The notes below the pieces were generated by a model. It did no database searches. It had not been told where the DNA came from and was given only the letters and a program-made list of their open reading frames with translations. A program made the position numbers and the translations under genes. Source: Chloroflexota bacterium (GTDB taxonomy: Bacteria > Chloroflexota > UBA11872). Taken from it: a DNA stretch of 64,000 bases. Below, one piece after another: positions 4,371-18,098 of this stretch; the first letter of the stretch is position 1; each line of letters begins with the position of its first letter. Where the stretch lies: NCBI GenBank assembly GCA_047516685.1, contig JAKZUJ010000108.1, forward strand, positions 14,787 to 78,786. Reading direction: 5' to 3'.

Positions 4371-4377
4371 GGGCGCG

Positions 4378-5718
4378 TCAGCCTGCGACGTCGGCTGCCG
4401 CCGCGCCCCGGAGCGACCACGGCGTGGCTGCCGTGATCTTGACCGCATGCGTACCACCGGGCGCCAGGTATGGCTGGTCAGGGGTGAAGACCAGCTTGTT
4501 GGTTCTGGTTCGGCCGCGCCAGCGCGGCTCGTGCTGCTCGCCCTTGCCAGGCGTGAGCTCCTCGAACAGCACCTCCGGCTCAGCGCCCAGGTAGGTGCGG
4601 TTGATCGCCTCGGCGATCAGCGTCTGCTCGCGCTCGATCCGGTGCAGGCGGCGCAGCTTCTCCGCCCGCGGCACGTCGTCAACCCACTCGGCGGCCACCG
4701 TGCCTTGTCGCGGCGAGAAGGCCGCGACGTGCACCTGATCGAAGCGCAGGTCGCGCACGAGCCGCAGCGACTCCAGGAAGTGCTGCTCTTGCTCACCGCA
4801 GAATCCCACGATGATGTCGGTGGTCAGCGCCACGCCGGGCACGGTGGCGCGCAGCATGGCGATGGTCTCGCGGTAGAAGTCGGCGCCGTAACCGCGCGCC
4901 ATGCGTTTGAGGACCCAGTCGTCACCGGACTGGACGGGCAGATTGATTTCTTCGCAGACGCTGGGGATGTCGCGCATCGCTTCGGCCAGCGCGCGGGTCA
5001 TGAAGCGTGGATGGGCCGTCGTGAAGCGAATCCGGTCGATACCGTCCACGGCGTCGACGCGTTCGAGTACATCCGGCAGGCTGGTTCTGTCGAGGTCGAA
5101 CCCGTAGGCGTTCACGATCTGCCCGAGCAAGACGATCTCGCGCGCGCCCTCGTCACGAAAACGCCGAACTTCGTCGAGAATTTCGTCCATCGGCCGACTG
5201 CGCTGGGCGCCGCGCCGAAACGGCACGATGCAGTAGGTGCAGCGCTTGTCGCATCCGTAAATCACGTTGACGAAGCGGGACACTGCTCCGGCGCCTGGCG
5301 CCGGCTGCGCCTCGACGTCCTCGTATCCGGGCGCGTCAGCCGGCGCCGAACGCGCCAGCCTTGCCAGGAGGGGCGCGGCGTTCAGCGTGTCGAACAGCAC
5401 GTCCACGGGATCGAGGTGCGGCGCGAGTTCGTCCTCGTCCGCGTGAACGGTGCAGCCGGTCAAGCCCACCACGAGATGCGGTTTCGTCTTCTTCAGGCCC
5501 TTGAGCATGCCGAGCATGCCCCAGACCTTGCGGTCGGCGTTGTCTCGAACGGCGCACCCATTGACGACCACGGCGGTGGCATCAGCCAGCGTGTCGGCTG
5601 GCGAATGCCCCGCGTGCTGGAGTTCGCGTTGGATCCGCTCGCCGTCGGCGCGATTCATCTGGCAGCCGATCGTCCAGATGAATACACGGTGCGAGGGAAC
5701 GAGTGTCAGCGGCATCAA
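4378..5718 (-). CDS. miaB: tRNA-2-methylthio-N6-dimethylallyladenosine synthase (radical SAM methylthiotransferase)
   Basis: N-terminal MTTase motif IGCQMN. Radical SAM CxxxCxxC (CDKRCTYC). C-terminal TRAM-like region. 446 aa. Confidence 0.85.
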   Translation of the reverse strand: MMPLTLVPSHRVFIWTIGCQMNRADGERIQRELQHAGHSPADTLADATAVVVNGCAVRDNADRKVWGMLGMLKGLKKTKPHLVVGLTGCTVHADEDELAPHLDPVDVLFDTLNAAPLLARLARSAPADAPGYEDVEAQPAPGAGAVSRFVNVIYGCDKRCTYCIVPFRRGAQRSRPMDEILDEVRRFRDEGAREIVLLGQIVNAYGFDLDRTSLPDVLERVDAVDGIDRIRFTTAHPRFMTRALAEAMRDIPSVCEEINLPVQSGDDWVLKRMARGYGADFYRETIAMLRATVPGVALTTDIIVGFCGEQEQHFLESLRLVRDLRFDQVHVAAFSPRQGTVAAEWVDDVPRAEKLRRLHRIEREQTLIAEAINRTYLGAEPEVLFEELTPGKGEQHEPRWRGRTRTNKLVFTPDQPYLAPGGTHAVKITAATPWSLRGAAAADVAG

Positions 5719-5820
5719 GTGAATGCGACCTCAGGTGCCGGCGCTGGGCCAAAGTGCCACACTCGGTATCATAACCTTCCGGGGTACGCGCGCCGGATTC
5801 GCATCCTGGACGGTGACTTT

Positions 5821-6033
5821 TTGCGCTCCCGCTTCGCACTTCTCCGCCGCCCCGCCGTCGTTGCCTTTCTTGTACTGGCCACGGTCTTGACCGTGTTGGT
5901 CTTTCTGGTGTCGGCCGGCCGGGCGCTTGGCGTCCCTCAGTATTTGGGGCTGGTCACGGTGGCCGTCGTCACGGCGGCATTCGCGGTTGGGCTCATGTAC
6001 GCCGGTAGCGGATCCGGCGATTCGGAGGCGTAG
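5821..6033 (+). CDS. putative small two-helix membrane protein (~70 aa), start codon uncertain (TTG)
   Basis: Tail of antisense ORF 4333..6033. Its last 70 codons are strongly hydrophobic (AVVAFLVLATVLTVLVFLV ... LGLVTVAVVTAAFAVGLMYAG). They lie in the miaB/rmlD divergent intergenic region. The stop TAG 6031-6033 is 1 nt from the rmlD GTG at 6035. Confidence 0.25.
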   Translation: MRSRFALLRRPAVVAFLVLATVLTVLVFLVSAGRALGVPQYLGLVTVAVVTAAFAVGLMYAGSGSGDSEA

Positions 6034-6034
6034 C

Positions 6035-6880
6035 GTGGAGCGGTCGACGGTGGTGACAGGCGCCGGTGGCCAGTTGGGGATCGAACTGGCCCGGCGGCTG
6101 GACGAGTCGAGTAGCTTGACGTTGACGCGCTCTCAACTTGACGTAACGAATGCTCCGCTGGTGGAGCGCACGCTGCACGAGATCAGTCCGCGGCTCATTG
6201 TTCACGCGGCTGCCGCTACCAACGTCGACCTTTGCGAGCGGCAACGCGCCGAGGCCTACCGGACGAACGCCGTCGGGACCTGGAATGTGGCGCGCGCGGC
6301 CGCCCGTACCGGCGCCCAAATGGTGTACGTGAGCACCAACTACGTGTTCGACGGTCGGAAGCTCGGTCCGTACCTGGAGTACGACGACCCGGCGCCTTTG
6401 AGCGCCTACGGCTGGACGAAGTTGCACGGGGAGCGGGCCGCGCACCAGGTGCTGGATCGTCTGTATGTGGTTCGCACCAGTTGGCTCTACAGCCGCTGGG
6501 GCCGCAATTTCCTCAGCCGCCTGCTGAATGTCGATTCCGCCGACAGTCCGCTGCGGTACGTGGGTGACCAAGTGGCCAATCCGACCAACGCGGGCGACCT
6601 GGCAGCGGCCATTCTCAGGTTGGCGGAAACCGAGGCCTTTGGCACGCATCATCTCGTCAACGAGGGCGCGACCAGCTGGTACGGCTGGGCCGCGGCCGTG
6701 CTCGCGGCGCTCGGTCGCGATGACGTGGCGCTGGAAGAGATCAGCGCGGCCGAGTTTCCGCGCGCCGCGGCGGTCCCAGCCAATGCCGAACTGGCGAACG
6801 AGATGGCCCGCGCGGTGAATGTGACGTTGCGGCCCTGGGGTGAAGCGCTGTCGGCGCATGTTCGTGAGGTGGCGTCGTAG
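6035..6880 (+). CDS. rmlD: dTDP-4-dehydrorhamnose reductase
   Basis: ORF-track 5927..6880. GTG 6035 gives VERSTVVTGAGGQLG (Rossmann GxxGxxG) at the N-terminus. Rest matches RmlD/RfbD: YVSTNYVFDG, active-site YGWTKLHGE, ANPTNAGDLA. Confidence 0.8.
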   Translation: MERSTVVTGAGGQLGIELARRLDESSSLTLTRSQLDVTNAPLVERTLHEISPRLIVHAAAATNVDLCERQRAEAYRTNAVGTWNVARAAARTGAQMVYVSTNYVFDGRKLGPYLEYDDPAPLSAYGWTKLHGERAAHQVLDRLYVVRTSWLYSRWGRNFLSRLLNVDSADSPLRYVGDQVANPTNAGDLAAAILRLAETEAFGTHHLVNEGATSWYGWAAAVLAALGRDDVALEEISAAEFPRAAAVPANAELANEMARAVNVTLRPWGEALSAHVREVAS

Positions 6881-7846
6881 GTGGACACCGACGGCGAAGC
6901 TTCCCCGCCACGCTGGTCAGTGCTGATTCCCACGTGGAACGGACGGCATCTGCTCGAAGAGGCCCTGGACGGCTTGGATGCCCAGATCTTGCAGGACTTC
7001 GAAGTATTGGTCGTGGACGATGGCTCGGACGATGACACCGTGGTCTGGATGCGGGCCCAGCGGCCCGTTGACCGCCTGATCGAGCAACCGACGCAGTGTG
7101 GGCTGGCCGCCGCATTGAACCGTGGAATCGCGGCCGCGCATGGTCGCTTCATTGCAGTGCTCAACAATGACGCCGTGCCGGAGCCGGGCTGGTTGGGGGC
7201 GCTGGATCGCGCGTTCGCGGCTGCTCCGGACGCCAGTTTTCTGGCCTCGCGAATCCGCCTGTACGACGACCCGTCCCGATTGCACGCCGCCGGGGATACG
7301 TTCGGCCGCAACGGGCTGCCCGGCAATCGTGGCGTCTGGAAGCCCGACGGTCCGCCCTATACCGAGTCGTGTGAAGTATTCGGCGCCTGCGCGGCCGCGG
7401 CGGGCTATCGCCGCGAGCTCTTCGACGACATTGGGGTTTTCGACGAAGACCTGGTGATGTATTGCGAGGACGTGGACCTGGACTGGCGCGCTCAGATGGC
7501 CGGTCATCGCTGCCGCTACGTGCCAGACGCGGTCGTCCGGCATCGACTCAGCGCCACCGCCGGCGGCGAGATCGCCAGTTTTCTCGTGGCGCGTAACCGG
7601 CCGCTGGTGGCCATCATGAATATGCCGGGTTTTCTCTGGCGGCGCGGATGGTGGCGGATTGCCGGGGCGCAGCTTAGACTGGCGGCCGCGGCGCTGCGCG
7701 CGATTCGCGGACGAGCCGCGCGCGCCACGCTGGCGGGCCAGTTAGCGTCGTTAGGACAGCTGCCCCGGGCTTGGAGCAAGCGGTCGCGCCGCCAGCGGTC
7801 ACGCCGCGTGGCAGACGCTTATATCGAAGGTTTGCTCGAGCGTTGA
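6881..7846 (+). CDS. glycosyltransferase family 2 (rhamnosyltransferase-like)
   Basis: WSVLIPTWNGRHLLEEALDGLDAQ ... VVDDGSDDDT ... NNDAVPEPGWL ... CEDVDLDWR. GT-A fold DxD and ED motifs. GTG start immediately after rmlD stop. Confidence 0.75.
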   Translation: MDTDGEASPPRWSVLIPTWNGRHLLEEALDGLDAQILQDFEVLVVDDGSDDDTVVWMRAQRPVDRLIEQPTQCGLAAALNRGIAAAHGRFIAVLNNDAVPEPGWLGALDRAFAAAPDASFLASRIRLYDDPSRLHAAGDTFGRNGLPGNRGVWKPDGPPYTESCEVFGACAAAAGYRRELFDDIGVFDEDLVMYCEDVDLDWRAQMAGHRCRYVPDAVVRHRLSATAGGEIASFLVARNRPLVAIMNMPGFLWRRGWWRIAGAQLRLAAAALRAIRGRAARATLAGQLASLGQLPRAWSKRSRRQRSRRVADAYIEGLLER

Positions 7847-7864
7847 CGCAGGTGGAGGACGACG

Positions 7865-8239
7865 ATGGGCTTTATACGGCGACTCTTCGGCGGCGGTGAC
7901 GGTGGAGCGAAAGAACCGGTCGATACCGCGTGGCACTTTTTCGTCAAGAGCAAATACGCGGACGAGATCATTGATGTCCGCGTGGATCCGAACGCCGACC
8001 TTTCGCCAGAGTTCGACGGCCCTGGGGACGGCACGTCGCACTACACGTCGAACAAGGACATTATCGGTCGCAAGAGCTTTCGAACTATCAATCTGCACCT
8101 CATTTTCAGTTCGAGTCGGGCCTATACCGGCGACTACACCATCGAGGGCGGTGAGCTGGTTGATCAGGCGACCTACGAGGACTGGAAAGCGCGGGAGACA
8201 GCCGCGAGCGCTGGCGACGACACTGGGGACGGGAGCTAG
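7865..8239 (+). CDS. hypothetical protein (124 aa), compositionally atypical (lower GC, rare codons)
   Basis: Strong SD GGAGGA 5 nt upstream of ATG 7865. Codons such as ATA, TTT, AAA and ATT are rare elsewhere in the window. No family recognised (MGFIRRLFGGG ... acidic C-terminus). Confidence 0.5.
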   Translation: MGFIRRLFGGGDGGAKEPVDTAWHFFVKSKYADEIIDVRVDPNADLSPEFDGPGDGTSHYTSNKDIIGRKSFRTINLHLIFSSSRAYTGDYTIEGGELVDQATYEDWKARETAASAGDDTGDGS

Positions 8240-8269
8240 CCCTCACTCGGGTCCGCGGGCGTCAATGTA

Positions 8270-9655
8270 GTGACCACTGCCAGGTTGCCCAGCCGGCGCG
8301 CGGCGCCGATGCTGCTTGCGGCCCTGGCGGTCGCGGCGATAGTTGCCGGCGTATTGGGCGGCGCGCGTCCACCGCCCGCGGCGCTCGCCGGCGGTTTGGC
8401 TGTTCTGGGCGCCGCGCTCGGTCTGATGAGGCCGGCACAGGGCCTGATGGCGGCCCTGGCCGTGGCCCTGCTGGCCCCATTCCTGGTCGTACCGCAGCGG
8501 TTCGGCGTGCAGCCGCCAGTTGTCGACGGCATCGTGGCCGCGACATTTCTGGGAGTCGCCCTGCGCGGAGTCACGGGACGGCGTGGAGAGTTTCCGGGAT
8601 CGGAGTCGACTCCACGCTGGCTCGTGGGTGTGACAGCCGTGGCGGCGGCGCTGCCACTGGCGGCCGGAGCGGCGGCCTTTGCGGCTTCGCACGACGGCCA
8701 GGCGGCTCAGGTTGCGGTCAAGATGTCGCTCTACGGCTTGACGCCGGTCATGGCTGCGCTCATGTGCCCACGGGCATGCTCGCTGCGAGCCGTGGCAGCC
8801 GTTGTCACCGCGGGCGCCGCGCTTCAGGCCCTGGTCGCAATTGTCATTCACCTGTCCGGTCCGGCCGGTATACAGGCGTTGGAGGGACTGGGCACGGCAG
8901 GCTATCCGTCGACCGGCGTCGCGCGATTCCTGCCAGATCAGGTCACTCCGCGCGCGACCGGCTTGCTGGTCGATCCGAACGTGCTGGGCGTCACCCTGGC
9001 GGCCGCTCTGCCGTTTGGGTTGGTGTGGATCGGCGGCAGCGGACGGCGCACGGCGTTGGGTCTGGCCGCCTTGACGCTGATTGGGGTGGCACTGATATTC
9101 ACGATCTCGCGCGCGAGTTGGATTGCGGCGGCCGCCGGTTTGCTCGTATGGCTGGCCCTCGTCCGCCCTCGCCTGGCCGCCGCCGCGGCCGCGGTTCTTG
9201 GCGTCGCAGTGATTGCCGCCCCCATTGAACCGTTCGAAAGGATTCGCCAGGGATTGTTGGCGTCCGACCGCTCGGCAGCCCTGCGGGTGAACGAGTTCCG
9301 CGAAGCGACGCGTGTAATCGGTCGGTTCCCGCTCCTGGGAGTTGGGTATGGGGACGCGCCGCATCCGGACGTCTTCGTCGGGGTGTCCAATGCCTGGCTC
9401 TGGCTGGGTGAACGGGCCGGCGTCGCCGCTGGACTGACACATCTGGTCATGCTGGGCGGCGCGGCGCGGGCCGCCATCACGTCAGCGACCGTCGATCCCG
9501 CGCTGCGGCCGCTGCTCGCGTCGCTGGCGGCGTTCACCACGGCAGGACTGTTCGACCATCACATCGTTAGTTTTCCGCACCTGGTCTACATGGTGGGGGG
9601 GCTGGTTGGGCTAATCGCCGCGCGAGCGATCTACGCGGCGAGGAGCGCCGAATGA
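8270..9655 (+). CDS. O-antigen ligase / Wzy_C-family polytopic membrane protein (candidate ligase, polymerase or O-oligosaccharyltransferase)
   Basis: ~11 predicted TM helices. Wzy_C core GVALIFTISRASWIAAAAGLLVWLAL. Downstream loop carries H ... N.WL...GE.G..G (HPDVFVGVSNAWLWLGERAGVAAGL), as in WaaL/PglL/WsaB-type enzymes. Confidence 0.7.
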   Translation: MTTARLPSRRAAPMLLAALAVAAIVAGVLGGARPPPAALAGGLAVLGAALGLMRPAQGLMAALAVALLAPFLVVPQRFGVQPPVVDGIVAATFLGVALRGVTGRRGEFPGSESTPRWLVGVTAVAAALPLAAGAAAFAASHDGQAAQVAVKMSLYGLTPVMAALMCPRACSLRAVAAVVTAGAALQALVAIVIHLSGPAGIQALEGLGTAGYPSTGVARFLPDQVTPRATGLLVDPNVLGVTLAAALPFGLVWIGGSGRRTALGLAALTLIGVALIFTISRASWIAAAAGLLVWLALVRPRLAAAAAAVLGVAVIAAPIEPFERIRQGLLASDRSAALRVNEFREATRVIGRFPLLGVGYGDAPHPDVFVGVSNAWLWLGERAGVAAGLTHLVMLGGAARAAITSATVDPALRPLLASLAAFTTAGLFDHHIVSFPHLVYMVGGLVGLIAARAIYAARSAE

Positions 9656-10719
9656 AGTCCGTAGTGCTCGACGGGCGCATGCTTCGGCACGACCAAGCGG
9701 GGATCGGGCGCTACATCTGGCGGCTACAGGAGGCCCTGGCGGCGCTTCCCGAGCCGGGCATCGACCTCGAGTTGCTCGTGGATCGACGCGGCGGGCTTCC
9801 GGGCACGCCAGCGCTGCGCGCGCGCCGGACGATTGTGCCCGCCCGCAATCGGCTGGAGCGTCTGCTGCTGCCGCGTGCCCTCGCCGGCGTTGACCTGGCG
9901 CACTTCCCCGACCACGGGATTCCGCCGGGCGTTACTCGGCCGTCAATTGTGACCGTGCACGACATTTCGTTCCTGACGCACCCCGCCACCCATTCAGCAT
10001 CCAGCCGGCGGCACTATGGAGACACGATTCGAACCGTGCGGCGTGCACGGGGGGTTATCGTCCCGTCCCAGCACATGCGCGCGGCGCTGGTGGATCGCGA
10101 CCTTGTGGAGGCGGACCGGGTGACGGTTGTTCCGTATGCGTCCGGGTTGGCGGCGGCGGCGAATGGTTGCCAGCGCAGCGAATGGCCTGCGCCGTTCGCC
10201 CTGATGGTTGGAACCATCCAGCCGCGTAAGAACATCGAGCTGGCGGCGCGCGCGTTTGGGTTGTCCCGTTTCGCTCGGGAGGGAACTCTGCTGATTGTGG
10301 GGTTGCTTGGTTTTCGTGGGCCGGAGATCATTCGCGCCATCCGGTCCGATACCGGCTCCCGCAAGGCCCGGTTTCTTGGTCGGGTAGCCGACAATACGTT
10401 GGCGCGCCTCTTTGAACAGGCGGAGTTCGTGCTCATGCCGGCGCAGGATGAGGGATTCGGTCTGCCCGCAATAGAAGCCATGATGTTTGGGACGCCGGTT
10501 ATCGCGGCTCGGGCGGGCACCCTGCCGGAAGTGGTTGGAGATGACGCGCTGCTGGTCGACGCGAATGATGTCGAGGGGCTAACGGCGGCTATCGACCGGC
10601 TGGCCGACGACGCTGGTCTGCGAGCCGACTTGGGAACTCGCGGTCGCGCGCGGGCCGGAGGCTTCAGCTGGGAGCAAACGGCTCGAGGCACGCTGGCGGT
10701 GTACGAGGCCTGCGCGTGA
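9652..10719 (+). CDS. glycosyltransferase family 1 (GT4-type, GT-B fold)
   Basis: C-terminal EGFGLPAIEAMMFGTPVIAARAGTLPEVVGD motif (EX7E-type). Start overlaps upstream stop by 4 nt. Confidence 0.75.
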   Translation: MKSVVLDGRMLRHDQAGIGRYIWRLQEALAALPEPGIDLELLVDRRGGLPGTPALRARRTIVPARNRLERLLLPRALAGVDLAHFPDHGIPPGVTRPSIVTVHDISFLTHPATHSASSRRHYGDTIRTVRRARGVIVPSQHMRAALVDRDLVEADRVTVVPYASGLAAAANGCQRSEWPAPFALMVGTIQPRKNIELAARAFGLSRFAREGTLLIVGLLGFRGPEIIRAIRSDTGSRKARFLGRVADNTLARLFEQAEFVLMPAQDEGFGLPAIEAMMFGTPVIAARAGTLPEVVGDDALLVDANDVEGLTAAIDRLADDAGLRADLGTRGRARAGGFSWEQTARGTLAVYEACA

Positions 10720-11930
10720 ACATTCTGGCAATCACGTCAACGCCGCTCTGGCCGCCGACCCACGGCGCGGCACTGCGAAACAGCCTGCTGCTCGAGGCCC
10801 TGGCCTCCGAGCACACCGTCGATCTGGTCACGCTCGACGGGCCCGGTGCGCCGTCCGTTGCCGCGCCATCGTCGATCCGTCGAGTCGTCCAGGTTCGCGC
10901 CGCGCCACCCACGGTCTGGCGGCGGCTGCGGGGTGGATGGCGCGGCGGTGTGCCGGACCTGCTCATCCGACACGGATCCCGCAGCCTGCGCGGCCGCGTG
11001 CAAATGCTCCTGAGCGGCGGTGACTATCACGCCGTCCATGTGGCGCAGGCCCAACTGGCGCCCCTGATTCGCGACGTGCGGACCGCTTCGTCACGTCACA
11101 CCAGACGGCCGCGGGTGATCTACGACGCCCACAACGTTGAGTGGATGCTGCAGGCGGCGCTGGCAGGCGCCAGCGCCGGCCCGCGCGCCCTGTGGGCGCG
11201 CCGACAGGCCAGACTGTTGCGGCAGGTGGAATCGTGGGTGGCTCGGACCGCCGACCAGGTAGTGGCCGCGTCGCCCGACGACCGTGACGGTCTGGTGGCT
11301 CTCGGCGCCCGCACGGCCGTGTACATCCCGCATCCGGTACGGGTTGGGGCGGAGCGTCCGGGCGGCGAGGGTCGGGCCAAACAGCCACGCGTGCTCTTTG
11401 CCGCGAACTTTGCCTACCGCCCGAACATCATGGCGGCGGAGTGGCTGTTCGGACAGGTGTGGCCGTCCGTCGCGCGCAACGTGCCAGCCGCGGAACTGCG
11501 AGTGGTCGGTCATCGGTCCGACGACCTGCGCTCGATCATGCCTGCGCGGTCGACGCTGGGCGGAGTCGTGGACGACATTGATGGCGAGTATCGGCGGGCC
11601 TGGCTGGCTCTCTCACCCACGGCGATAGCCGCGGGAGCGCCTTATAAGGTCTTGTCGGCCCTGGCGGCGGGTCGTCCCGTGGTCGCCCGTGCGCAGGGGT
11701 ACGTAGGCCTGCCGGCCCACACCGGAATTGGTGTCATGACGCCCTCGCGGAGCGACGAATTCGTGGGCGCCGTGACGACCCTGTTGACGGACCCAGCGGC
11801 CTACGAACGGGCGGCCGCCGGTGGATTCGACTACGTCAAGGCCAAGCACGACGCAGCCGCCGTTGGTCGGCAGCTCCTCGACGTTTATGCGCGCGTTCAG
11901 GCGCCGGAAGCCACGGGAGCGGCGGTGTGA
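10716..11930 (+). CDS. glycosyltransferase family 1 (GT4-type)
   Basis: N-terminal MNILAITSTPLWPPTHGAALRN (GT4 N-domain). C-terminal GT-B region with AAGAPYKVLSALAAGRPVV. Overlaps neighbours by 4 nt on both sides. Confidence 0.7.
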   Translation: MNILAITSTPLWPPTHGAALRNSLLLEALASEHTVDLVTLDGPGAPSVAAPSSIRRVVQVRAAPPTVWRRLRGGWRGGVPDLLIRHGSRSLRGRVQMLLSGGDYHAVHVAQAQLAPLIRDVRTASSRHTRRPRVIYDAHNVEWMLQAALAGASAGPRALWARRQARLLRQVESWVARTADQVVAASPDDRDGLVALGARTAVYIPHPVRVGAERPGGEGRAKQPRVLFAANFAYRPNIMAAEWLFGQVWPSVARNVPAAELRVVGHRSDDLRSIMPARSTLGGVVDDIDGEYRRAWLALSPTAIAAGAPYKVLSALAAGRPVVARAQGYVGLPAHTGIGVMTPSRSDEFVGAVTTLLTDPAAYERAAAGGFDYVKAKHDAAAVGRQLLDVYARVQAPEATGAAV

Positions 11931-12859
11931 CCGTTGCCATCTGCGCCACCGTCAAGAACGAAGCCGCCGCCGCCTCGGCATTGGTGGCAAGTCTCCGCGA
12001 GCAGGACCTGGCCGCGGACGAGATTGTGATCGTTGACGGCGGATCGACCGACGCCACCTTCGAGGCGTTGCGCGCGGCAGCGCAGGGGGATCCGCGGTTC
12101 AGCCTGCGGCGCGCACCGGGCGCCAATATCGCCAGCGGCCGCAACCTGGCGATTGGCGCAACGCAGTCACCCTTGATCGCAGTGACGGATGCCGGCCTGC
12201 GGCGCTCGGCGCAGTGGCTCCGGGCACTCGTTGCGGCTGTGCAGGATGAACCGCTCGCCGCGGGGTCCTATGGCTACATTCTGGCTGCGCCGGAAACGAC
12301 GTTCGAGGCGGCGCTGGGCGCCGTGGCGCTGCCGCTGGCGCCTCAGATCGACTCCGCACGCTATCCACCCAGCAGCGGGTCGGCGCTGTTTCGACGCGAG
12401 TGGTTGGACCGCGTCGGGGGCTATCCCGAGTGGCTCGCGCATGGCGAAGACCTGTGGCTGGACCGCGAAATCTGGCGCAACGGCGGCTGGTTCCGCCACG
12501 CCCCAGGCGCCGATGTGGGCATTCGCCCGCGACCCTCGGTCCTGGCCTTCTTCCGCCAGTACTTCCTATACGCTGCCGGCGATGGCCATGCCGGCATGCT
12601 CGTGCGGCGCCATGCGCTGCGCTACGGGGCCTACGCGCTGGGTCTTGCGCTGATGCTGCATCGGTCGCCAGCGGCGTGGGCATTGCTGCTTGCGCTGACA
12701 GGCGCTTACCTGGGCCGCTCCCTGCGCCGTACGCCGGCAATGATCCGACGCACGGCCACCGCCAACGCTCTCGGCGCCGCCGCGCTGACGCCGGCTCTGC
12801 GGATCATTGGCGACTTGGCGAAGATGAGCGGATTCGTCGCCGGGCTGGCCCGTCGGTGA
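11927..12859 (+). CDS. glycosyltransferase family 2 with C-terminal membrane segment
   Basis: VAICATVKNEAAA ... IVIVDGGSTDAT ... ASGRNLAI ... VTDAG (GT2 DxD). Hydrophobic C-terminal third. Confidence 0.7.
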   Translation: MTVAICATVKNEAAAASALVASLREQDLAADEIVIVDGGSTDATFEALRAAAQGDPRFSLRRAPGANIASGRNLAIGATQSPLIAVTDAGLRRSAQWLRALVAAVQDEPLAAGSYGYILAAPETTFEAALGAVALPLAPQIDSARYPPSSGSALFRREWLDRVGGYPEWLAHGEDLWLDREIWRNGGWFRHAPGADVGIRPRPSVLAFFRQYFLYAAGDGHAGMLVRRHALRYGAYALGLALMLHRSPAAWALLLALTGAYLGRSLRRTPAMIRRTATANALGAAALTPALRIIGDLAKMSGFVAGLARR

Positions 12860-13761
12860 CGGCGAAGATGCCCGACGCTCCTGACGTCGCTGTTGTCATC
12901 ACCACCTTCAACGTGCGCGCCCTGCTGGAGCGCTGCCTGGCCAGTCTGTCAGCGGCCCGCGGCTCGCAAACGCTGGAGATCGTTGTCGTGGACAACGGCA
13001 TGGGTGACGACACGTGGCCGATGTTGCTAGCCCGCGACGACGTGCGGGCGATTCGCGGCTCGCCGGAGCTTGGCTATGGAGGCGCCAACAACATCGGCGC
13101 CGCCGCGACCCGTGCGCCCCTGATTCTGTTCCTTAACCCGGACACGGAGCCGGAGCCGGAATCCATCGCCGTGCTGGCCGACCAGCTACGGCGGCGTGCT
13201 GACGTCGGCGCCGCCGGTCCTCGATTGGCGCTATCCGACGGGAGCCTGGACCCCGCCGCGCGTCGGAACTTCCCGCGTCCGGCCAACGCTCTGCATCGTC
13301 TTCTCGGTGCGCCGCGCGTTCTCCGTCCGGCCGCCGCCAGGCCCTACAACCCCGGCGAGCCGTCGTACGCGGCCGTAAGCGAGATTGACGCCGTATCGGG
13401 CGCGTGTTTGATGATTCGCCGCCCGGCCTTTGAGGGCGTGGGTGGATTTGACCCGACGTTCTTCATGTACGGCGACGATCTGGACCTGCAGCGGCGACTG
13501 GCCGACGCCGGCTGGAAGGTCCTGTATGTGCCCGCGGCACGCGTGTGGCACCGCAAGCGGCAATCGTCCCGCCAGCGCCCGCTCCGTACCCGGTTCGAGT
13601 TTTACCGGTCGATGTGGCGCTACTACGACAAGCACCATGTTGGCGACCCATGGCCATTGCGCGCCGTCGTGAAGAGCGGGGTGCTTGTACTCGGTTGTTG
13701 CAGCGTGCTACGCGCACTTGCGGCCTGGCGACGAGGGGGAACGGTAGGCACGACATGCTGA
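12856..13761 (+). CDS. glycosyltransferase family 2
   Basis: ORF-track 12400..13761 is an upstream extension. GTG 12856 (GTGA overlap) or ATG 12868 gives MPDAPDVAVVITTFN ... VVDNGMGDDT ... YGGANNIG ... GACLMIRR ... DDLDLQRR, a classical GT2_2 signature. Confidence 0.7.
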   Translation: MTAKMPDAPDVAVVITTFNVRALLERCLASLSAARGSQTLEIVVVDNGMGDDTWPMLLARDDVRAIRGSPELGYGGANNIGAAATRAPLILFLNPDTEPEPESIAVLADQLRRRADVGAAGPRLALSDGSLDPAARRNFPRPANALHRLLGAPRVLRPAAARPYNPGEPSYAAVSEIDAVSGACLMIRRPAFEGVGGFDPTFFMYGDDLDLQRRLADAGWKVLYVPAARVWHRKRQSSRQRPLRTRFEFYRSMWRYYDKHHVGDPWPLRAVVKSGVLVLGCCSVLRALAAWRRGGTVGTTC

Positions 13762-15167
13762 CCTGGGCGCAGCGCAACTGGGGCGGCCTGGTCTCCACGT
13801 TTTCACTCGTGGCCGACGTGGTAGCTGTCGGTCTGGCTCTGATTGCGGCCTACTACGTGCGCTATCGCTTTGGCTGGTTCGAGGGAACGCCGCCTAACCG
13901 TTTCCTGTTTCTGGCTCCCGTCACTGTCGCGTGTGCCGCCGCGACCGTGGTCGGCGGTCTGTCACTGGGCATGTATTCGCGCTTTCGGACGGCCGGACCG
14001 GTGGATCGGGTGGCGCGCAGCGCGGGCATGGTCACGATAGGTTCGCTACTCGCGGTCGCGGCCACGTTTTTCGTCTTCACCGACCGCCTGGAACCTGTGC
14101 GAAACGTCATGCCAATGGCATGGCTGCTCGGCATAGTTTTCGTAGCGTTGGGGCGGTCGCTGCTGGCCGCACTCCTTCGGATCCTGGCGCGGCGTGGCGT
14201 CGGCGTCCAACGAGTGCTCGTGATCGGCGCCGGGGCTGAAGGACGCGAGGTCGCCGGTCGCCTGCTCGGGGACCCAAGCCGCCGATATCAACTCATCGGC
14301 TTCCTGGACGACTTTGAGTCTCGCGTATCGGTCGGCGAACGCGAGGCGCCGGTACTGGGCACATCCGCCGCGCTACCGGACCTGCTCTCCGAGCACGAAA
14401 TCGACAAGGTCGTCGTGGCTATTCCGTCGCTCTCACACGACGACCTGCTCGCCATCCTGGCCGATGTTGAAGCGTCCTATGCCGATGTGTGGCTGTTGCC
14501 CGATCTCTTTCAGCTCATGGTGTCTCCGGTTGTTGAAGGCGGGGTCCGCGGGCTTCCGCTGATTGCGGTCAACGAAGTGCGCCTGCGGGGCCTCAGCCGC
14601 TTCACCAAGCGCACGCTGGACATGGTGATGGCCTCATTGGTGCTCGTTGTGGCCTCGGCGCCGATGCTACTTGTCGCCCTCATCATCAAGTTAGACTCCC
14701 GAGGACCCGCCTTTTACGTGCAGACACGCGTTGGACGCGACGGTCGACCGTTTCCAATCGTGAAGTTTCGAACGATGGTCAGCGGCGCCGATGAGTACGG
14801 GCAGACGTGGACCGTGGCCAACGATCCTCGCCGGACTCGCGTCGGACGTTTCCTGCGACGCTACTGGATTGATGAATTGCCCCAATTCCTGAACGTCATT
14901 CGCGGCGACATGAGCCTGGTTGGCCCACGCCCGGAGCAGCCGGACTATGTGGACCGTTTTCGAGGCGAATTCTCCCGCTACATGGTTCGCCACCGCGAGC
15001 GCGCGGGCTTGACCGGCTGGGCGCAGGTCAACGGCATGCGCGGCGACTCGTCGATTGAAGAGCGCACCCGTTACGACTTGTACTACGTGGAAAACTGGTC
15101 ACTGCTCTTCGATTTGCGGATTCTGTTGCGAACGCTGCTGACGGTGATGCGTGGCGATGCGAGCTAG
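13755..15167 (+). CDS. undecaprenyl-phosphate hexose-1-phosphate transferase (WbaP/WsaP-type priming sugar transferase)
   Basis: ORF-track 13545..15167. ATG 13755 (ATGCTGA overlap with upstream stop). Five N-terminal TM helices. C-terminal bacterial sugar transferase domain: RGPAFYVQTRVGRDGRPFPIVKFRTM ... DELPQFLNVIRGDMSLVGPRPE ... ENWSLLFDLRIL. Confidence 0.8.
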   Translation: MLTWAQRNWGGLVSTFSLVADVVAVGLALIAAYYVRYRFGWFEGTPPNRFLFLAPVTVACAAATVVGGLSLGMYSRFRTAGPVDRVARSAGMVTIGSLLAVAATFFVFTDRLEPVRNVMPMAWLLGIVFVALGRSLLAALLRILARRGVGVQRVLVIGAGAEGREVAGRLLGDPSRRYQLIGFLDDFESRVSVGEREAPVLGTSAALPDLLSEHEIDKVVVAIPSLSHDDLLAILADVEASYADVWLLPDLFQLMVSPVVEGGVRGLPLIAVNEVRLRGLSRFTKRTLDMVMASLVLVVASAPMLLVALIIKLDSRGPAFYVQTRVGRDGRPFPIVKFRTMVSGADEYGQTWTVANDPRRTRVGRFLRRYWIDELPQFLNVIRGDMSLVGPRPEQPDYVDRFRGEFSRYMVRHRERAGLTGWAQVNGMRGDSSIEERTRYDLYYVENWSLLFDLRILLRTLLTVMRGDAS

Positions 15168-17952
15168 CGGCCGAGCCTCCCCGGTTTCCCGTCGGTTTCT
15201 CCTGGGCGTCATTGCCGCCGCCACGGCGACCACGGCCTGCGAAATCGGCGGCTTCGGGGGAGATGCCTCGCCAACAGCCGATCCCAGCGCGACAAGCACT
15301 CCGCCACCCTATCCAGCTCCCGTTTCGCAACCGCTACCGCCCCCGGTTCGCCTGCCCGCGTTCATGTCGGACTTTGCCGGCACGGGAGATATTGGGGACA
15401 GCGGCGACGGCGGACCGGCGGTTGCGGCACAGTTTCGCAGTGTCGGCGGGGTCGCGGTTGCTTCCGACGGGGTGATCTATCTGTCCGATCCCAGCGCCAG
15501 TCGTATTCGCCGGATTCGGGCGGGCGGGGTGATCGAGGCACTGGCAGGCACCGGCACGCGCGGTTACGGCGGCGACGGCGGTTATGCCCTCGCCGCGGAC
15601 TTCACCGACCCGACGCGATTGCTGGTCGATCAGGCCGGCACGCTATTCGTCGCCGAGCTGGACCGCGTGCGACGGATCGATGCAGCGGGGCTGGTGTCCA
15701 CGATTCTGGGCGACGGTCATGCAGGCCTGGAAGGCGACGGCGGGCCGGCGGCCTTTGCCAGAACGGCTGGCAACGAAGGCATGGCTGTTGACGGTGAAGG
15801 AAACCTGTTCATCGCCGAACGCGCGGCCAATCGGGTGCGCCGTATCGATACGCACGGCAACGTGGTTACCGTGGTTGGCACCGGCGCCCCGGGGAGCGAC
15901 GGCGACGGCGGACCAGCGCTTTCGGCAACGCTCAACCAGCCGGTCGATGTGGACGTTGACGGTCTGGGCAATCTCCTCATTGCTGAACTGGCCGGCAATC
16001 GGATTCGTCGAGTGTCCACCAGCGGCGTGATCGACACTATTGCCGGTGTTGGCCTCCCAGGCGGGGCCGGTGACGGCGGACCGGCGACCGCGGCTGAACT
16101 CCACGGTCCCCAAAGCGTGGTGGTGGATGCGAGCGGCGCCATATTCGTCGCCGACTGGAACAACCGGCGCATTCGCTGCATTCACCCCGATGGAACGATC
16201 CAGACGGTGGCCGGGCTCGTGGGCGGTCGCGTGGAGTCCGGCGGGCCGGCGCTGGAGTCGCGGCTTACGCTACCGCTCGACATAACGCCAACTCTTGACG
16301 GCAGCTTGCTAGTCGTGGAGCAGGGCGCGCGACGGGTGCGGGCGCTCGTGCCGGCGCCGGGTTCCGAATCGCCACAGCCGGGGACGGACGCCGGGCCCGC
16401 CGGATCCGGGGACACCCAGCAAGCCAACGCTCAGACAGCCCCGTCAGCCTATGTGGCGCCCGCCCCCGCCCTGCCAAGCGGCGCACCGCTTGCCGGCGAC
16501 CTGGTGGCCGAGGTCTTTGCCGGCACGGGTGAATCCGGCAGCGCCGCCGATGGCGAGTTTCGACTGAGCGCCTTGTTTGCGTCGCCGCGCGGGATAGCCG
16601 TCGACAGTGTTGGTCGAATCCTGATCGCCGATACCGGCAACCACCGGATTAGCCGGATCGAACCGGACGGCTCGGTCCGGATCGTGGCTGGAACCGGGGA
16701 ACCGGGTAACGCCGGGGACGGCCAGGCCGCTCGGGCGGCCCAGCTCAACCGTCCATCCGCGCTGGCCGTGGATGCGCAGGGGTCAATCTACGTCGCCGAC
16801 TCGGGCAATTTCCGAATTCGCAAAATCGACCCGGATGGCGTCATCACGACGTTTGCCGGAAGCTCTCAGCCAGGCGTTGCCGGCGACGGCGGGCCCGCGC
16901 GCGACGCCCAGTTCACCGAACCAAGCGGCCTGGCCCTGGGTTCTGACGGCTCATTGTTTGTAGTGGATGCGCCGGTTCATCGTGTGCGCGTGATTCGACC
17001 TGATGGCGTTGTCCGTGCTTTTGCGGGCAACGGAGTTGATGGGCTGGGCGGCGACGGCGGGCCGGCGGCAGAGGCCACGCTCGGTTTCCCACAGCGAGTC
17101 GCGGTCAACGCGGACGGATCGGTGCTCGTCACCCAACTCCAGGCGGGCGTGGTTCGTCGCATCGGTCCCGACGGGATCATTGAAAGCCTGGCCGGGTCCG
17201 GCCGAGCCGAGGCCCCGACCGAGGGTCCAGCCCGCGAGGTGTCGCTTGACGCCCCGATCGGCGTCGCGGTGGACACGGTTGGCGCTGTCTATGTGGCAGC
17301 CAGTGGCAGCGGCCAGATCACCCGAGTCGACCCGGGCGGGCACGCCCAGGTGATTGCCGGCAACCCTCTGGGCCAGGGCCAACCCGGGGGGCCGGCTCGT
17401 GATATCCCACTGTTCACGTCGATTGACATTGCGTTGGGGCGGGACGGAACGGCCTACCTGCTGGAGGCCCGCGGGCTCATCTGGCGGATCAGTTCCACGA
17501 CTCCAGGCGTCGCGCCCGGAGCGACCCAGCCGCCAGACGGGCTCACGCCGACGCCAACGTTAACCCCAGCCCTGGACGTTGGAGCTAACGAATCGGCCGG
17601 GGCCGCCAGCGTGGTACTGACCCTGCAGCTTGGGCCGGGGCAGGAACCGATCCAGCCAACGCTCACGTTCCACCCCGGCGAACGTGTGAACGTGTCGATT
17701 GAATTCGTGGATGTGGCGCAGGGATCGCGCCTCGGAATCCGCTGGTTTGCGGGCGACACGCTGCAGGGAACGTTCCTGACCGATCCGCAACCGGCGTACA
17801 ACAGGGCGCGATTCGGCTTCTGGTTTGGTCTGCCGCCCACGGCCGCCCCCGGTCCCTGGCGGGTTGAGATTTTGGTCGGCTCCCGGGCAATTGCTTCCGT
17901 GGACTTCGTGGTGACTGCCGGCGAGGTCCGCGTGACGCCGCCTTCGGCATAG
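15151..17952 (+). CDS. NHL-repeat double beta-propeller lipoprotein (933 aa)
   Basis: Tat-like signal SRRFLLGVIAAATATTAC with lipobox. About 12 NHL repeats (GDGGPA ... P.G.A.D..G.lyvAD..N.RIRRI) in two groups, separated by a Pro/Gln-rich linker. C-terminal ~150 aa beta-rich domain. GTG 15151 / ATG 15157. Confidence 0.7.
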   Translation: MAMRASGRASPVSRRFLLGVIAAATATTACEIGGFGGDASPTADPSATSTPPPYPAPVSQPLPPPVRLPAFMSDFAGTGDIGDSGDGGPAVAAQFRSVGGVAVASDGVIYLSDPSASRIRRIRAGGVIEALAGTGTRGYGGDGGYALAADFTDPTRLLVDQAGTLFVAELDRVRRIDAAGLVSTILGDGHAGLEGDGGPAAFARTAGNEGMAVDGEGNLFIAERAANRVRRIDTHGNVVTVVGTGAPGSDGDGGPALSATLNQPVDVDVDGLGNLLIAELAGNRIRRVSTSGVIDTIAGVGLPGGAGDGGPATAAELHGPQSVVVDASGAIFVADWNNRRIRCIHPDGTIQTVAGLVGGRVESGGPALESRLTLPLDITPTLDGSLLVVEQGARRVRALVPAPGSESPQPGTDAGPAGSGDTQQANAQTAPSAYVAPAPALPSGAPLAGDLVAEVFAGTGESGSAADGEFRLSALFASPRGIAVDSVGRILIADTGNHRISRIEPDGSVRIVAGTGEPGNAGDGQAARAAQLNRPSALAVDAQGSIYVADSGNFRIRKIDPDGVITTFAGSSQPGVAGDGGPARDAQFTEPSGLALGSDGSLFVVDAPVHRVRVIRPDGVVRAFAGNGVDGLGGDGGPAAEATLGFPQRVAVNADGSVLVTQLQAGVVRRIGPDGIIESLAGSGRAEAPTEGPAREVSLDAPIGVAVDTVGAVYVAASGSGQITRVDPGGHAQVIAGNPLGQGQPGGPARDIPLFTSIDIALGRDGTAYLLEARGLIWRISSTTPGVAPGATQPPDGLTPTPTLTPALDVGANESAGAASVVLTLQLGPGQEPIQPTLTFHPGERVNVSIEFVDVAQGSRLGIRWFAGDTLQGTFLTDPQPAYNRARFGFWFGLPPTAAPGPWRVEILVGSRAIASVDFVVTAGEVRVTPPSA

Positions 17953-18098
17953 CCGAGTGGAGATCCGATGTCGCTGCGACAAGGGCTTTGGCCTTGCACT
18001 GGTTGGGTCGCCGATATTCCGGGTATGCACCGGATTGTCCTTGGTGACCTGTCTCCCACCCGTAGAATGGCGCTGATCGCCAAAAACGCATAGGCCGC

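What the first reader, a model, noticed from the sequence alone, without database searches (positions are those of the whole stretch)
6035..17952. Compact glycan-assembly locus resembling a protein O-glycosylation (S-layer-glycosylation-like) system, directly followed by a giant NHL-repeat lipoprotein
Nine consecutive + strand genes are mostly coupled by 1-4-nt start/stop overlaps. They encode rmlD, a GT2, a small orphan ORF, a Wzy_C/O-antigen-ligase-family membrane protein, two GT1 enzymes, two GT2 enzymes and a full-length WbaP-type priming transferase. In organisms without LPS, Wzy_C proteins such as WsaB, PglL and PilO act as O-oligosaccharyltransferases that move undecaprenyl-linked glycans onto surface proteins. 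The next gene is a 933-aa secreted lipoprotein built from two NHL propellers, a plausible glycosylation target or cell-surface partner. No Wzx flippase or ABC exporter is present in the window, and only rmlD of the four rml genes is here. The export route and nucleotide-sugar supply are therefore unresolved. This may indicate an unconventional or split system.
Basis: partly seen in the sequence, partly recalled or inferred. Interest (0 to 1): 0.65.

Follow-up and report, generated by a model that had tools for sequence, protein, structure and literature searches.

The report
Conserved cell-surface sugar-assembly operon of sponge bacteria
This is a real eleven-gene operon, kept intact across an order of uncultured sponge-dwelling Chloroflexota, that builds a sugar chain on a lipid carrier and hands it over outside the cell with an unusual enzyme, but the sequence cannot tell whether the chain ends up on the neighbouring surface protein or in a wall polymer.

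Summary
rmlD, three GT2, two GT4, a Wzy_C membrane protein, a full-length priming transferase and a 931-aa two-propeller NHL lipoprotein lie head to tail at 6035-17952, mostly joined by 0-nt gaps or 4-11-nt overlaps.

I add three things.
- An uncalled 70-aa two-helix membrane gene (5821-6033) heads the operon.
- The 'orphan' ORF is a conserved soluble protein.
- The whole operon, including the NHL gene overlapping the priming-transferase stop, is syntenic in 37 species-level genomes of Chloroflexota order UBA11872 (sponge MAGs). It is a core, vertically inherited locus, not a variable antigen locus.

No wzx, wzz, ABC exporter or LCP gene lies in the window or within 10 kb on either side.

The Wzy_C protein has the WaaL fold and both diphosphate-binding arginines. 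The histidine shared by WaaL and PglL is an invariant serine, and the PglL_A motif is absent. It belongs to a distinct His-less clade of about 240 representatives.

The O-glycosylation reading therefore stays possible (about 0.3) but is not supported by the family tests. I slightly favour a conserved envelope glycopolymer (about 0.4). I rate it a new variant of a known kind, of moderate interest.

The parts
5821..6033 (+). Uncalled 70-aa gene for a small membrane protein with two TM helices; first gene of the operon (TTG start; stop 1 nt before the rmlD start)
   Evidence: It is conserved at protein level directly upstream of rmlD in more than 30 loci, at 100 to 39% identity. Differences by codon position are 350/211/706 over 23 loci, the pattern of a coding sequence. 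No Pfam family. The metagenome gene callers did not call it.
6035..6880 (+). rmlD, dTDP-4-dehydrorhamnose reductase
   Evidence: TIGR01214 269.8 bits against a cut-off of 224. PF04321 272.7 bits.
6881..7846 (+). GT2 glycosyltransferase 'GT2a', inferred to be the rhamnosyltransferase
   Evidence: PF00535 and PF13641. It is absent together with rmlD in the three most distant loci, L040, L041 and L043.
7865..8239 (+). Conserved 124-aa soluble protein of unknown function (seven strands plus a C-terminal helix)
8309..9655 (+). Wzy_C / WaaL-fold polytopic membrane transferase, His-less clade (alternative GTG start at 8270)
   Evidence: PF04932 37.3 bits. AF2 pTM 0.84. The only PDB fold match is WaaL 7TPG, E 3.5e-8, TM 0.58-0.64. 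R268 and R326 align with the WaaL arginines, and S360 replaces the His.
9652..10719 (+). GT4 glycosyltransferase 'GT4a'
   Evidence: PF00534 93.2 bits.
10716..11930 (+). GT4 glycosyltransferase 'GT4b'
   Evidence: PF13692 and PF13579. Weak similarity to TIGR03087.
11927..12859 (+). GT2 glycosyltransferase 'GT2b'
   Evidence: PF00535 59.6 bits.
12856..13761 (+). GT2 glycosyltransferase 'GT2c'
   Evidence: PF13641 72 bits and PF00535 66 bits.
13755..15167 (+). Full-length polyprenyl-phosphate hexose-1-phosphate transferase (priming enzyme), WcaJ-like
   Evidence: TIGR03025 432.5 bits and TIGR03023 422.5 bits, both above their cut-offs. TIGR03022 (WbaP) is below its cut-off. Four N-terminal hydrophobic segments plus one internal.
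15157..17952 (+). 931-aa NHL lipoprotein: RR signal, lipobox-like Cys29, two six-bladed NHL propellers and a ~110-aa C-terminal domain
   Evidence: Pfam. Its start overlaps the priming-transferase stop by 11 nt, and this overlap is conserved in nearly all loci. The Cys is invariant. Domain map. Blade count.

Best explanation
The operon is a vertically inherited, single-transcript pathway for one conserved cell-envelope glycoconjugate of Chloroflexota order UBA11872.

Cytoplasmic steps (supported by family assignment; chemistry inferred).
- The WcaJ-like priming enzyme puts a hexose-1-phosphate, probably Glc-1-P, on undecaprenyl phosphate.
- Five cytoplasmic glycosyltransferases (two GT4, three GT2) extend it to a unit of about six sugars.
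- GT2a adds L-rhamnose, whose last biosynthetic step is supplied by RmlD.

Export (inferred). A flippase encoded elsewhere moves the Und-PP-oligosaccharide outward.

Outside the membrane. The His-less WaaL-fold enzyme binds the Und-PP donor with its two conserved arginines and transfers the glycan. I consider the most likely acceptor to be another repeat unit. That would make the enzyme a polymerase producing a conserved rhamnose-containing wall or surface polymer, comparable to the secondary cell-wall polysaccharides of monoderm bacteria, whose flippase and ligase genes lie elsewhere. The co-translated NHL lipoprotein would be a membrane-anchored surface partner that binds, organises or trims the polymer.

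Confidence. The general part (Und-PP-linked envelope glycan operon) is about 0.9 certain. The choice of polymerase over en-bloc transfer is only slightly favoured.
For: - Gene content and family assignments.
- Tight coupling of all eleven genes.
- Order-wide synteny in 37 genomes, with divergence tracking the flanking housekeeping genes, for example miaB 52% / PGT 47% / Wzy_C 35% in L040. Base composition is not atypical. This is a core envelope function, not a horizontally transferred variable antigen locus.
- rmlD and GT2a are lost together in L040, L041 and L043.
- The Wzy_C protein has the WaaL fold. Both Und-PP-binding arginines are conserved in all aligned clade members (137 and 126 of the 145 representatives), while the ligase/OTase His is Ser or Ala and never His.
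- In the CAZy analysis, ligases keep the His and polymerases of the same clan do not. One polymerase family uses an acid in the TM5-6 loop instead, which is where this clade has the near-invariant D222 of 'VDPNV' (PMC10920833).
- The gene sits among the GT genes, as wzy genes usually do.
- Outside the order, clade members follow PMT_2/YfhO-type GT-C or GT4 genes, which suggests a glycopolymer that is further decorated outside the membrane.
- There is precedent for WaaL/Wzy-clan proteins in monoderm wall-polysaccharide synthesis with the flippase and LCP ligase encoded elsewhere (B. anthracis WpaA/WpaB, PMC6030368).
Against: - No Wzx, no chain-length regulator (PCP/Wzz) and no LCP ligase lie in the window or within 10 kb on either side. 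A polymerase model therefore needs three unlinked components, whereas an en-bloc transferase needs only a flippase.
- None of the out-of-lineage clade members examined sits in a wzx-wzy-wzz cluster.
- The clade has no Asp or Glu exactly at the His position, so it does not fit the usual polymerase signature either.
- A translationally coupled secreted lipoprotein is more naturally read as an acceptor.
- The role of the NHL protein is pure inference. No catalytic or glycan-binding signature was found.
Confidence: 0.4

Rival explanations
1. First reader's model. The Wzy_C protein is a protein O-oligosaccharyltransferase. It moves the completed Und-PP-linked oligosaccharide en bloc onto Ser/Thr in the flexible linkers of the co-translated NHL lipoprotein, and perhaps other surface proteins, giving a glycoprotein coat.
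For: - The NHL gene overlaps the priming-transferase stop and is syntenic in every genome of the order.
- O-OTase genes are often adjacent to and co-oriented with their target genes (PMC3643930). S-layer genes lie close to slg clusters in Geobacillus (PMC2943079).
- The operon has exactly one extracytoplasmic enzyme and no chain-length regulator, as expected for en-bloc transfer.
- The NHL protein has Pro/Thr/Ser/Ala-rich linkers after the lipidated Cys and before the C-terminal domain.
- Order-wide conservation of the glycan genes fits a general glycosylation system.
Against: - The His conserved in WaaL and in all PglL homologues (H338/H349) is Ser or Ala throughout this clade (PMC3643930).
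- There is no PglL_A domain, and no TPR or partner as in WsaB/WsfB.
- Clade members outside the order are never next to an NHL lipoprotein or a priming transferase.
- The linkers are only 9-24% Ser/Thr, and the middle one is poorly conserved.
- There is no direct evidence of any glycoprotein.
Confidence: 0.3
2. The Wzy_C protein is a ligase for a non-protein acceptor. It transfers the oligosaccharide from Und-PP onto a membrane glycolipid (a lipoglycan, as TacL does for pneumococcal lipoteichoic acid) or onto a peptidoglycan-linked unit. The NHL lipoprotein is an unrelated or accessory surface protein.
For: - WaaL is the only structural relative found.
- The clade behaves like a single-copy housekeeping gene, often beside other extracytoplasmic GT-C enzymes and never in wzx/wzz clusters.
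- There is no chain-length regulator in the locus.
- Established knowledge, not tested here: Chloroflexi walls carry polysaccharide bound to muramic acid.
Against: - The WaaL His is missing.
- No acceptor-synthesis genes lie in the locus.
- TacL-type ligases were not compared, because no reference sequence was available in the tools.
Confidence: 0.15
3. The link between the NHL gene and the glycan genes is only positional. The whole region, from the GNAT gene to dnaJ, is syntenic in this slowly rearranging lineage. The NHL lipoprotein would then be an independent 'eukaryotic-like' host-interaction protein that merely shares a transcript.
For: - Flanking unrelated genes (PQQ lipoprotein, miaB, grpE, dnaJ) are just as syntenic as the operon.
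- NHL-repeat proteins are counted among the eukaryotic-like proteins discussed for sponge symbionts (papers found, abstracts only).
- Homologues outside the lineage are generic multi-NHL proteins.
Against: - The start/stop overlap with the priming-transferase gene is kept even at 40% protein identity, and where downstream neighbours differ (hrcA is inserted in L040).
- This rival says nothing about what the glycan genes do, so it is compatible with any of the other models.
Confidence: 0.1

Closest known systems
Wzx/Wzy-dependent heteropolysaccharide loci (O-antigen, colanic acid/EPS, Gram-positive capsule)
   Same: A WcaJ/WbaP-family priming transferase, a run of GT2/GT4 enzymes, a nucleotide-sugar gene and a Wzy_C-clan polytopic protein embedded among the GT genes, all on one strand.
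   Different: - No wzx, wzz/PCP, tyrosine kinase or LCP gene in 84 kb.
- The locus is invariant across an order rather than hypervariable.
- The Wzy_C protein lacks both the ligase His and the usual polymerase acid at that position.
- A lipoprotein gene is translationally coupled to the priming enzyme.
PglL / PilO (TfpO) / PglS O-oligosaccharyltransferase systems
   Same: A Wzy_C domain, the WaaL-like fold and the two Und-PP-binding arginines. A candidate target gene is adjacent and co-oriented, and the donor is built on Und-PP by a priming transferase.
   Different: - The His (PglL H349) is replaced by Ser.
- PglL_A (PF15864) is absent.
- The candidate target is an NHL lipoprotein, not a pilin.
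- The organism is a Chloroflexota, not a proteobacterium.
S-layer glycosylation (slg) clusters of Geobacillus stearothermophilus and Paenibacillus alvei (WsaP/WsfP, WsaB/WsfB)
   Same: A monoderm context, a WbaP-family initiation enzyme, rhamnose chemistry, a Wzy_C protein, and a surface protein gene nearby.
   Different: - slg clusters carry rmlABCD and a Wzm/Wzt ABC exporter. Here only rmlD is present and there is no exporter.
- S-layer genes are transcribed separately there. Here the surface protein gene is in the operon.
- The NHL lipoprotein has no S-layer or SLH features.
WaaL O-antigen ligase (CAZy GT121; PDB 7TPG)
   Same: It is the only solved structure matched by the model (TM 0.58-0.64). 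R268 and R326 correspond to WaaL R191/R265 (7TPG) and R215/R288 (E. coli).
   Different: - About 16% identity, and no sequence-profile match to any PDB chain.
- The acceptor-activating His313/H338 is Ser.
- The host phylum is held to lack lipid A-core.
Secondary cell-wall polysaccharide synthesis in Bacillus anthracis (WpaA/WpaB)
   Same: WaaL/Wzy-clan membrane proteins proposed to polymerise or ligate an Und-PP-built wall polymer in a monoderm, with the flippase and LCP ligases encoded elsewhere.
   Different: - WpaA/WpaB belong to a different Pfam family (PF13425).
- That pathway is primed by TagO.
- No lipoprotein partner is known there, and their activity is itself unproven.

Membership tests
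PglL-type protein O-oligosaccharyltransferase | Wzy_C (PF04932) domain in a polytopic membrane protein | tested here: met
   37.3 bits against a cut-off of 31.7. About 12 helices in the model.
PglL-type protein O-oligosaccharyltransferase | Conserved Arg/Arg/His triad (NmPglL R224, R298, H349 = EcWaaL R215, R288, H338; PMC3643930) | tested here: not met
   R268 and R326 are present. The His position is S360, invariant in the family, and S/A (never H) in 67 metagenome homologues and in the 117 of 145 cluster representatives that align there.
PglL-type protein O-oligosaccharyltransferase | PglL_A motif (PF15864) | tested here: not met
   No Pfam hit other than Wzy_C at E <= 0.01.
PglL-type protein O-oligosaccharyltransferase | Glycosylated protein substrate | not testable with these tools
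   This needs glycoproteomics. Only adjacency of a candidate (the NHL lipoprotein) is shown.
WaaL O-antigen ligase (GT121) | WaaL fold with two Und-PP-binding arginines | tested here: met
   Foldseek match to 7TPG, E 3.5e-8. Arginine alignment.
WaaL O-antigen ligase (GT121) | Acceptor-activating His (7TPG H313) | tested here: not met
   Ser at that position. PMC10920833 gives the role of the His.
WaaL O-antigen ligase (GT121) | Lipid A-core acceptor / LPS pathway in the genome | not testable with these tools
   Whole genomes could not be scanned. The phylum is generally regarded as lacking LPS (own knowledge).
Wzx/Wzy-dependent polysaccharide locus | Polyprenyl-phosphate hexose-1-P transferase plus serial GTs | tested here: met
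   TIGR03025 and TIGR03023 above their cut-offs. Five GTs.
Wzx/Wzy-dependent polysaccharide locus | Wzx (MOP) flippase in the locus | tested here: not met
   No such gene in the window or within 10 kb on either side. The only polytopic proteins in the operon are Wzy_C and the priming enzyme.
Wzx/Wzy-dependent polysaccharide locus | Wzy polymerase (GT-C1 clan: one or two Arg plus Asp/Glu at the position of the ligase His) | tested here: inconclusive
   The arginines are present. Ser/Ala occupies the His position. A near-invariant D222 lies in the TM5-6 loop, as in the exceptional family GT127.
Wzx/Wzy-dependent polysaccharide locus | Chain-length regulator (Wzz/PCP) | tested here: not met
   None in the window or within 10 kb on either side.
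slg (S-layer glycosylation) cluster | rmlABCD set and Wzm/Wzt ABC exporter beside WsaP and WsaB (PMC2943079) | tested here: not met
   Only rmlD is present, and there are no ABC transporter genes.
RmlD (dTDP-4-dehydrorhamnose reductase) | Score above the equivalog cut-off of TIGR01214 | tested here: met
   269.8 bits against 224.05.
Bacterial lipoprotein (NHL protein) | N-terminal signal peptide ending in a lipobox Cys | tested here: met
   An RR-containing n-region, a hydrophobic core and an invariant Cys followed by D/E in 32 of the 33 orthologues listed; the exception, L019, has C-K. Position -3 is T/A rather than L/V/I, so lipidation is inferred, not shown.

The most novel reading that the evidence does not exclude
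An order-wide, dedicated protein O-glycosylation system in monoderm Chloroflexota sponge symbionts. A previously unrecognised His-less branch of the WaaL/PglL fold would glycosylate its own co-translated, Tat-exported NHL ('eukaryotic-like') surface lipoprotein, producing the conserved glycoprotein coat that these symbionts present to their host. This would be the first O-OTase class working without the canonical histidine and the first protein glycosylation system described in Chloroflexota.
Probability: 0.2. Interest if true: 0.7.

Novelty: new variant of a known kind. Interest (0 to 1): 0.4.

Why it matters
- Nothing is known experimentally about the cell surface of class UBA2235 Chloroflexota, which are abundant, uncultured sponge symbionts. 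This operon is a strong candidate for their one conserved surface glycoconjugate. It pairs that glycan with an NHL-repeat lipoprotein, a class of protein counted among the eukaryotic-like proteins discussed for sponge symbionts.
- The His-less WaaL-fold clade has about 240 representatives at 50% identity. Both Und-PP-binding arginines are kept, and Ser/Ala replaces the supposed catalytic His. This is a natural test of the proposed WaaL/PglL mechanism: either another residue, such as D222 of 'VDPNV', activates the acceptor, or the clade does different chemistry.
- The finding is testable in E. coli glyco-engineering strains.
- It does not in itself overturn anything. The pathway logic is standard and the key question, the acceptor, is open.

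Tried and rejected
- A sequence-profile search of the Wzy_C family against PDB chains found nothing. hhalign against E. coli WaaL also found nothing. The relation to WaaL shows only by fold and through a bridging canonical paralogue.
- Promoter and terminator scans across the operon gave no more than chance.
- No CIRCE element lies upstream of grpE.
- The fold of the 124-aa protein has no meaningful PDB match. The afdb50 library was unavailable.
- There is no Pfam family for the 70-aa protein, the N-terminal 81 residues of the NHL protein (signal peptide and first linker) or the NHL C-terminal domain.
- Homologues of the NHL protein outside the lineage are generic multi-NHL proteins, so context look-ups would not have been informative.
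- I considered GT2b as a GtrB-like polyprenyl-phosphate sugar synthase with C-terminal TM helices. I rejected this because the hydropathy scan shows no TM segment and there are no GtrB-type hits.
- I considered the 70-aa protein or another operon product as the flippase. I rejected this because two helices are too few, and nothing else is polytopic.
- My first translation of the upstream mini-ORF was in the wrong frame. I corrected it.
- I considered horizontal transfer. I rejected it on composition and on divergence that runs parallel with the flanking genes.

Full report
**Observation**

The window has about 65% G+C. On the + strand between 6035 and 17952 lie ten genes, in this order:
- rmlD (TIGR01214 above cut-off; PF04321);
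- a GT2 ('GT2a');
- a 124-aa ORF with no family;
- a Wzy_C protein (PF04932, 37.3 bits against a cut-off of 31.7);
- two GT4 enzymes;
- two further GT2 enzymes;
- a full-length priming transferase (CoA_binding_3 + Bac_transf);
- a 931-aa NHL-repeat protein.

The junctions are gaps of 0, 18 and 69 nt followed by overlaps of 4, 4, 4, 4, 7 and 11 nt. The priming enzyme passes NCBI's WcaJ-type model (422.5 against 410.75) but not the WbaP model (272.7 against 403), so Glc-1-P is a better guess than Gal-1-P. The apparent 566-aa + ORF at 4333-6033 is antisense to a miaB-like gene at 4378-5718.

**Two additions to the gene list**

The last 213 nt of that 'spurious' ORF (5821-6033) encode a 70-aa protein with two hydrophobic helices.
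- It ends 1 nt before the rmlD start.
- It is conserved at protein level directly upstream of rmlD in more than 30 related loci, down to 39% identity.
- Differences by codon position are 350/211/706, so it is a real gene that the gene callers missed.
- In the three most distant loci, a comparable two-helix mini-ORF occupies the same leading position.

The 124-aa 'orphan' is also conserved in the lineage.
- Its model is confident: seven strands plus a helix, pLDDT 82.
- It has no relative in the PDB.
- It is dispensable in one sub-lineage, being absent in L027, L029-L034, L036-L038 and L042.

**Source and surroundings**

The same locus occurs in several ENA and Logan assemblies at 99.3-99.9% identity to the window.
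- Upstream, beyond the window, lie DUF2851, lon, dnaK-grpE-dnaJ-hspR-clpB, a creatininase gene and a NUDIX gene.
- Downstream lie grpE-dnaJ-prmA-HIT, rpoB, rpoC and the ribosomal protein operons, then secY through rpoA, scpAB and the glycine cleavage genes.
- No Wzx, Wzz/PCP, polysaccharide ABC exporter, LCP ligase or rmlA/B/C gene lies anywhere in about 84 kb.
- Within the operon, only the Wzy_C protein and the priming enzyme are polytopic.

**Taxonomy and conservation**

Homologues of the Wzy_C protein come only from Chloroflexota MAGs. A scan of one genome per species found 37 loci, all titled 'Chloroflexota bacterium'. The six MAGs I looked up are sponge MAGs that the GTDB classification in the supplement of PMC8163846 places in class UBA2235, order UBA11872.

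In every locus that is long enough, the order is the same: PQQ lipoprotein(-), miaB(-), [mini-ORF, rmlD, GT2a, small ORF, Wzy_C, GT4a, GT4b, GT2b, GT2c, PGT, NHL], grpE, dnaJ. The cluster proteins diverge in step with the flanking genes. rmlD and GT2a are missing together in L040, L041 and L043. This is the best evidence that GT2a is the rhamnosyltransferase (inference).

This is a core, vertically inherited operon. That is unlike O-antigen or capsule loci, which vary between strains.

**The NHL protein**

Its start codon overlaps the priming-transferase stop by 11 nt in nearly all genomes. The overlap is retained in the most distant ones, where hrcA has been inserted downstream. Its architecture:
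- an RR-type signal and an invariant Cys, followed by D/E in all orthologues but one;
- a Pro-rich tether;
- two six-bladed NHL propellers (residues 66-398 and 446-780), separated by a poorly conserved linker;
- a Thr/Pro linker;
- a ~110-aa C-terminal domain without a family, which the most distant orthologues lack.

Its relatives outside the lineage are generic multi-NHL proteins. Nothing in the sequence shows catalysis or glycan binding.

**The Wzy_C protein**

The AF2 model (pTM 0.84) matches only one solved structure, the WaaL ligase 7TPG (E 3.5e-8, TM 0.58-0.64). Sequence profiles do not reach any PDB chain.

I located the catalytic residues by three routes: motif alignment through E. 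coli WaaL and 7TPG, family alignments, and an HMM alignment to a canonical Wzy_C paralogue from another genome (E 3.8e-11).
- R268 ('TISRASW') corresponds to WaaL R215 (E. coli) and R191 (7TPG).
- R326 ('SAALRVNEF') corresponds to R288 and R265.
- The His of the 'HN-x9-G' motif (E. coli H338, 7TPG H313, PglL H349) is Ser360.

According to PMC10920833, the two arginines bind the Und-PP phosphates and the His is thought to activate the acceptor. Polymerases of the same clan carry Asp or Glu there. The exception is one family that uses an acid in the TM5-6 loop. According to PMC3643930, the R/R/H triad is conserved in PglL O-OTases, which also carry the PglL_A motif. That motif is absent here.

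The substitution is not a quirk of one lineage.
- In 67 homologues from metagenomes the position is Ser (51) or Ala (16).
- In the 145 best representatives of an exhaustive HMM search it is Ser (109) or Ala (8) and never His. Both arginines are invariant in all sequences aligned there (137 and 126 of 145), and D222 of 'VDPNV' is nearly so (129 of 135).
- About 243 representatives score below 1e-30.

Outside order UBA11872, these proteins are not next to a priming transferase or an NHL protein. In 22 of the 37 loci with enough upstream sequence, they follow PMT/PMT_2/YfhO-type GT-C genes. Elsewhere they follow GT4 or GT2 genes, or pyruvate kinase. None of the contexts examined is a wzx/wzz cluster.

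**Interpretation**

The cytoplasmic half of the pathway is clear from family assignments. Und-P is primed by the PGT, extended by five GTs, and receives rhamnose through RmlD and GT2a. The donor for the outside step is an Und-PP-oligosaccharide, and the conserved arginine pair fits that. What the WaaL-fold enzyme transfers it to cannot be decided from sequence.

Arguments for polymerisation (a conserved wall or surface polymer):
- The ligase/OTase His is missing.
- There is a candidate acid in the TM5-6 loop.
- The gene lies among the GT genes.
- The clade associates with polymer-decorating GT-C enzymes.
- There is monoderm precedent for scattered flippase and ligase genes (PMC6030368).

- The operon has a single outside enzyme.
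- There is no chain-length regulator.
- The lipoprotein gene is translationally coupled.
- OTase and target genes are known to be adjacent in other systems (PMC3643930; PMC2943079).

A ligase for a lipid or peptidoglycan-linked acceptor is a third possibility. I put these at about 0.4, 0.3 and 0.15. The possibility that the NHL gene is only a positional passenger is compatible with any of them.

**Comparison and novelty**

The pathway logic is that of known Und-PP-dependent systems. These points are new:
- the order-wide fixity of the locus;
- the operon-encoded NHL lipoprotein;
- the two small conserved proteins;
- the membership of the outside enzyme in a distinct, apparently uncharacterised His-less branch of the WaaL/Wzy_C fold.

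Unlinked rmlABC has precedent (own knowledge: mycobacterial rmlD-wbbL, streptococcal gacA). An unlinked flippase cannot be assessed without whole genomes. I rate it a new variant of a known kind, with interest about 0.4. If the enzyme proves to be a His-independent O-OTase acting on its neighbour, the interest would be considerably higher.

Noticed in passing
window 5821-6033 (+): An uncalled 70-aa gene for a two-TM protein lies immediately upstream of rmlD. It is conserved across the order with a coding-type substitution pattern and has no known family.
   Followed up: yes
window 7865-8239 (+): The 'orphan' ORF is a conserved, lineage-restricted soluble protein (seven strands plus a helix, pLDDT 82). 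It has no PDB fold match and is absent from one sub-lineage.
   Followed up: yes
window 4333-6033 (+) against 4378-5718 (-): The 566-aa + ORF is an antisense artefact of a miaB-like radical-SAM methylthiotransferase gene, typical of high-GC DNA. Only its last 213 nt are coding.
   Followed up: yes
window 2574-4370 (-): A second beta-propeller protein (PQQ_2, 598 aa) with a twin-arginine motif (RRTFL) and a Cys after an Ala run is syntenic with the operon in all genomes. It is divergently placed beyond miaB. Any link to the glycan operon is unknown.
   Followed up: partly
window 17953-18098; L040 19654-20694: The most distant relatives carry hrcA between the NHL gene and grpE. The window lineage has only a 146-nt gap, no hrcA and no CIRCE element. 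A second dnaK-grpE-dnaJ-hspR-clpB set lies 10 kb upstream of the window.
   Followed up: partly
L061, L065, L071, L073, L110, L113 and other loci (region upstream of position ~10001): Outside order UBA11872, the His-less Wzy_C homologues usually sit directly downstream of PMT/PMT_2/YfhO-type GT-C membrane glycosyltransferases, sometimes preceded by a GT2 that is 33-40% identical to GT2c. This recurring module appears to be undescribed.
   Followed up: partly
L047 1-5187 (-): One genome carries a canonical His-containing Wzy_C gene next to genes for a sortase, a Wzz/GNVR-ParA-type kinase, an LPG_synthase_TM protein and a GT2-Bac_transf fusion. This group lies about 5 kb from its His-less paralogue, so the two types coexist.
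   Followed up: no
L045 15054-17779 (about 5-8 kb beyond the window's 3' end): A GFO_IDH_MocA oxidoreductase gene and a DegT/DnrJ aminotransferase gene, a possible amino-sugar pair, lie beside a sugar ABC importer. Any relation to the glycan operon is unknown.
   Followed up: no
whole window against L001 and L002: The window is 99.3% and 99.86% identical to contigs from two other assemblies and identical to neither, so several closely related strains of this organism are present in public metagenomes.
   Followed up: partly
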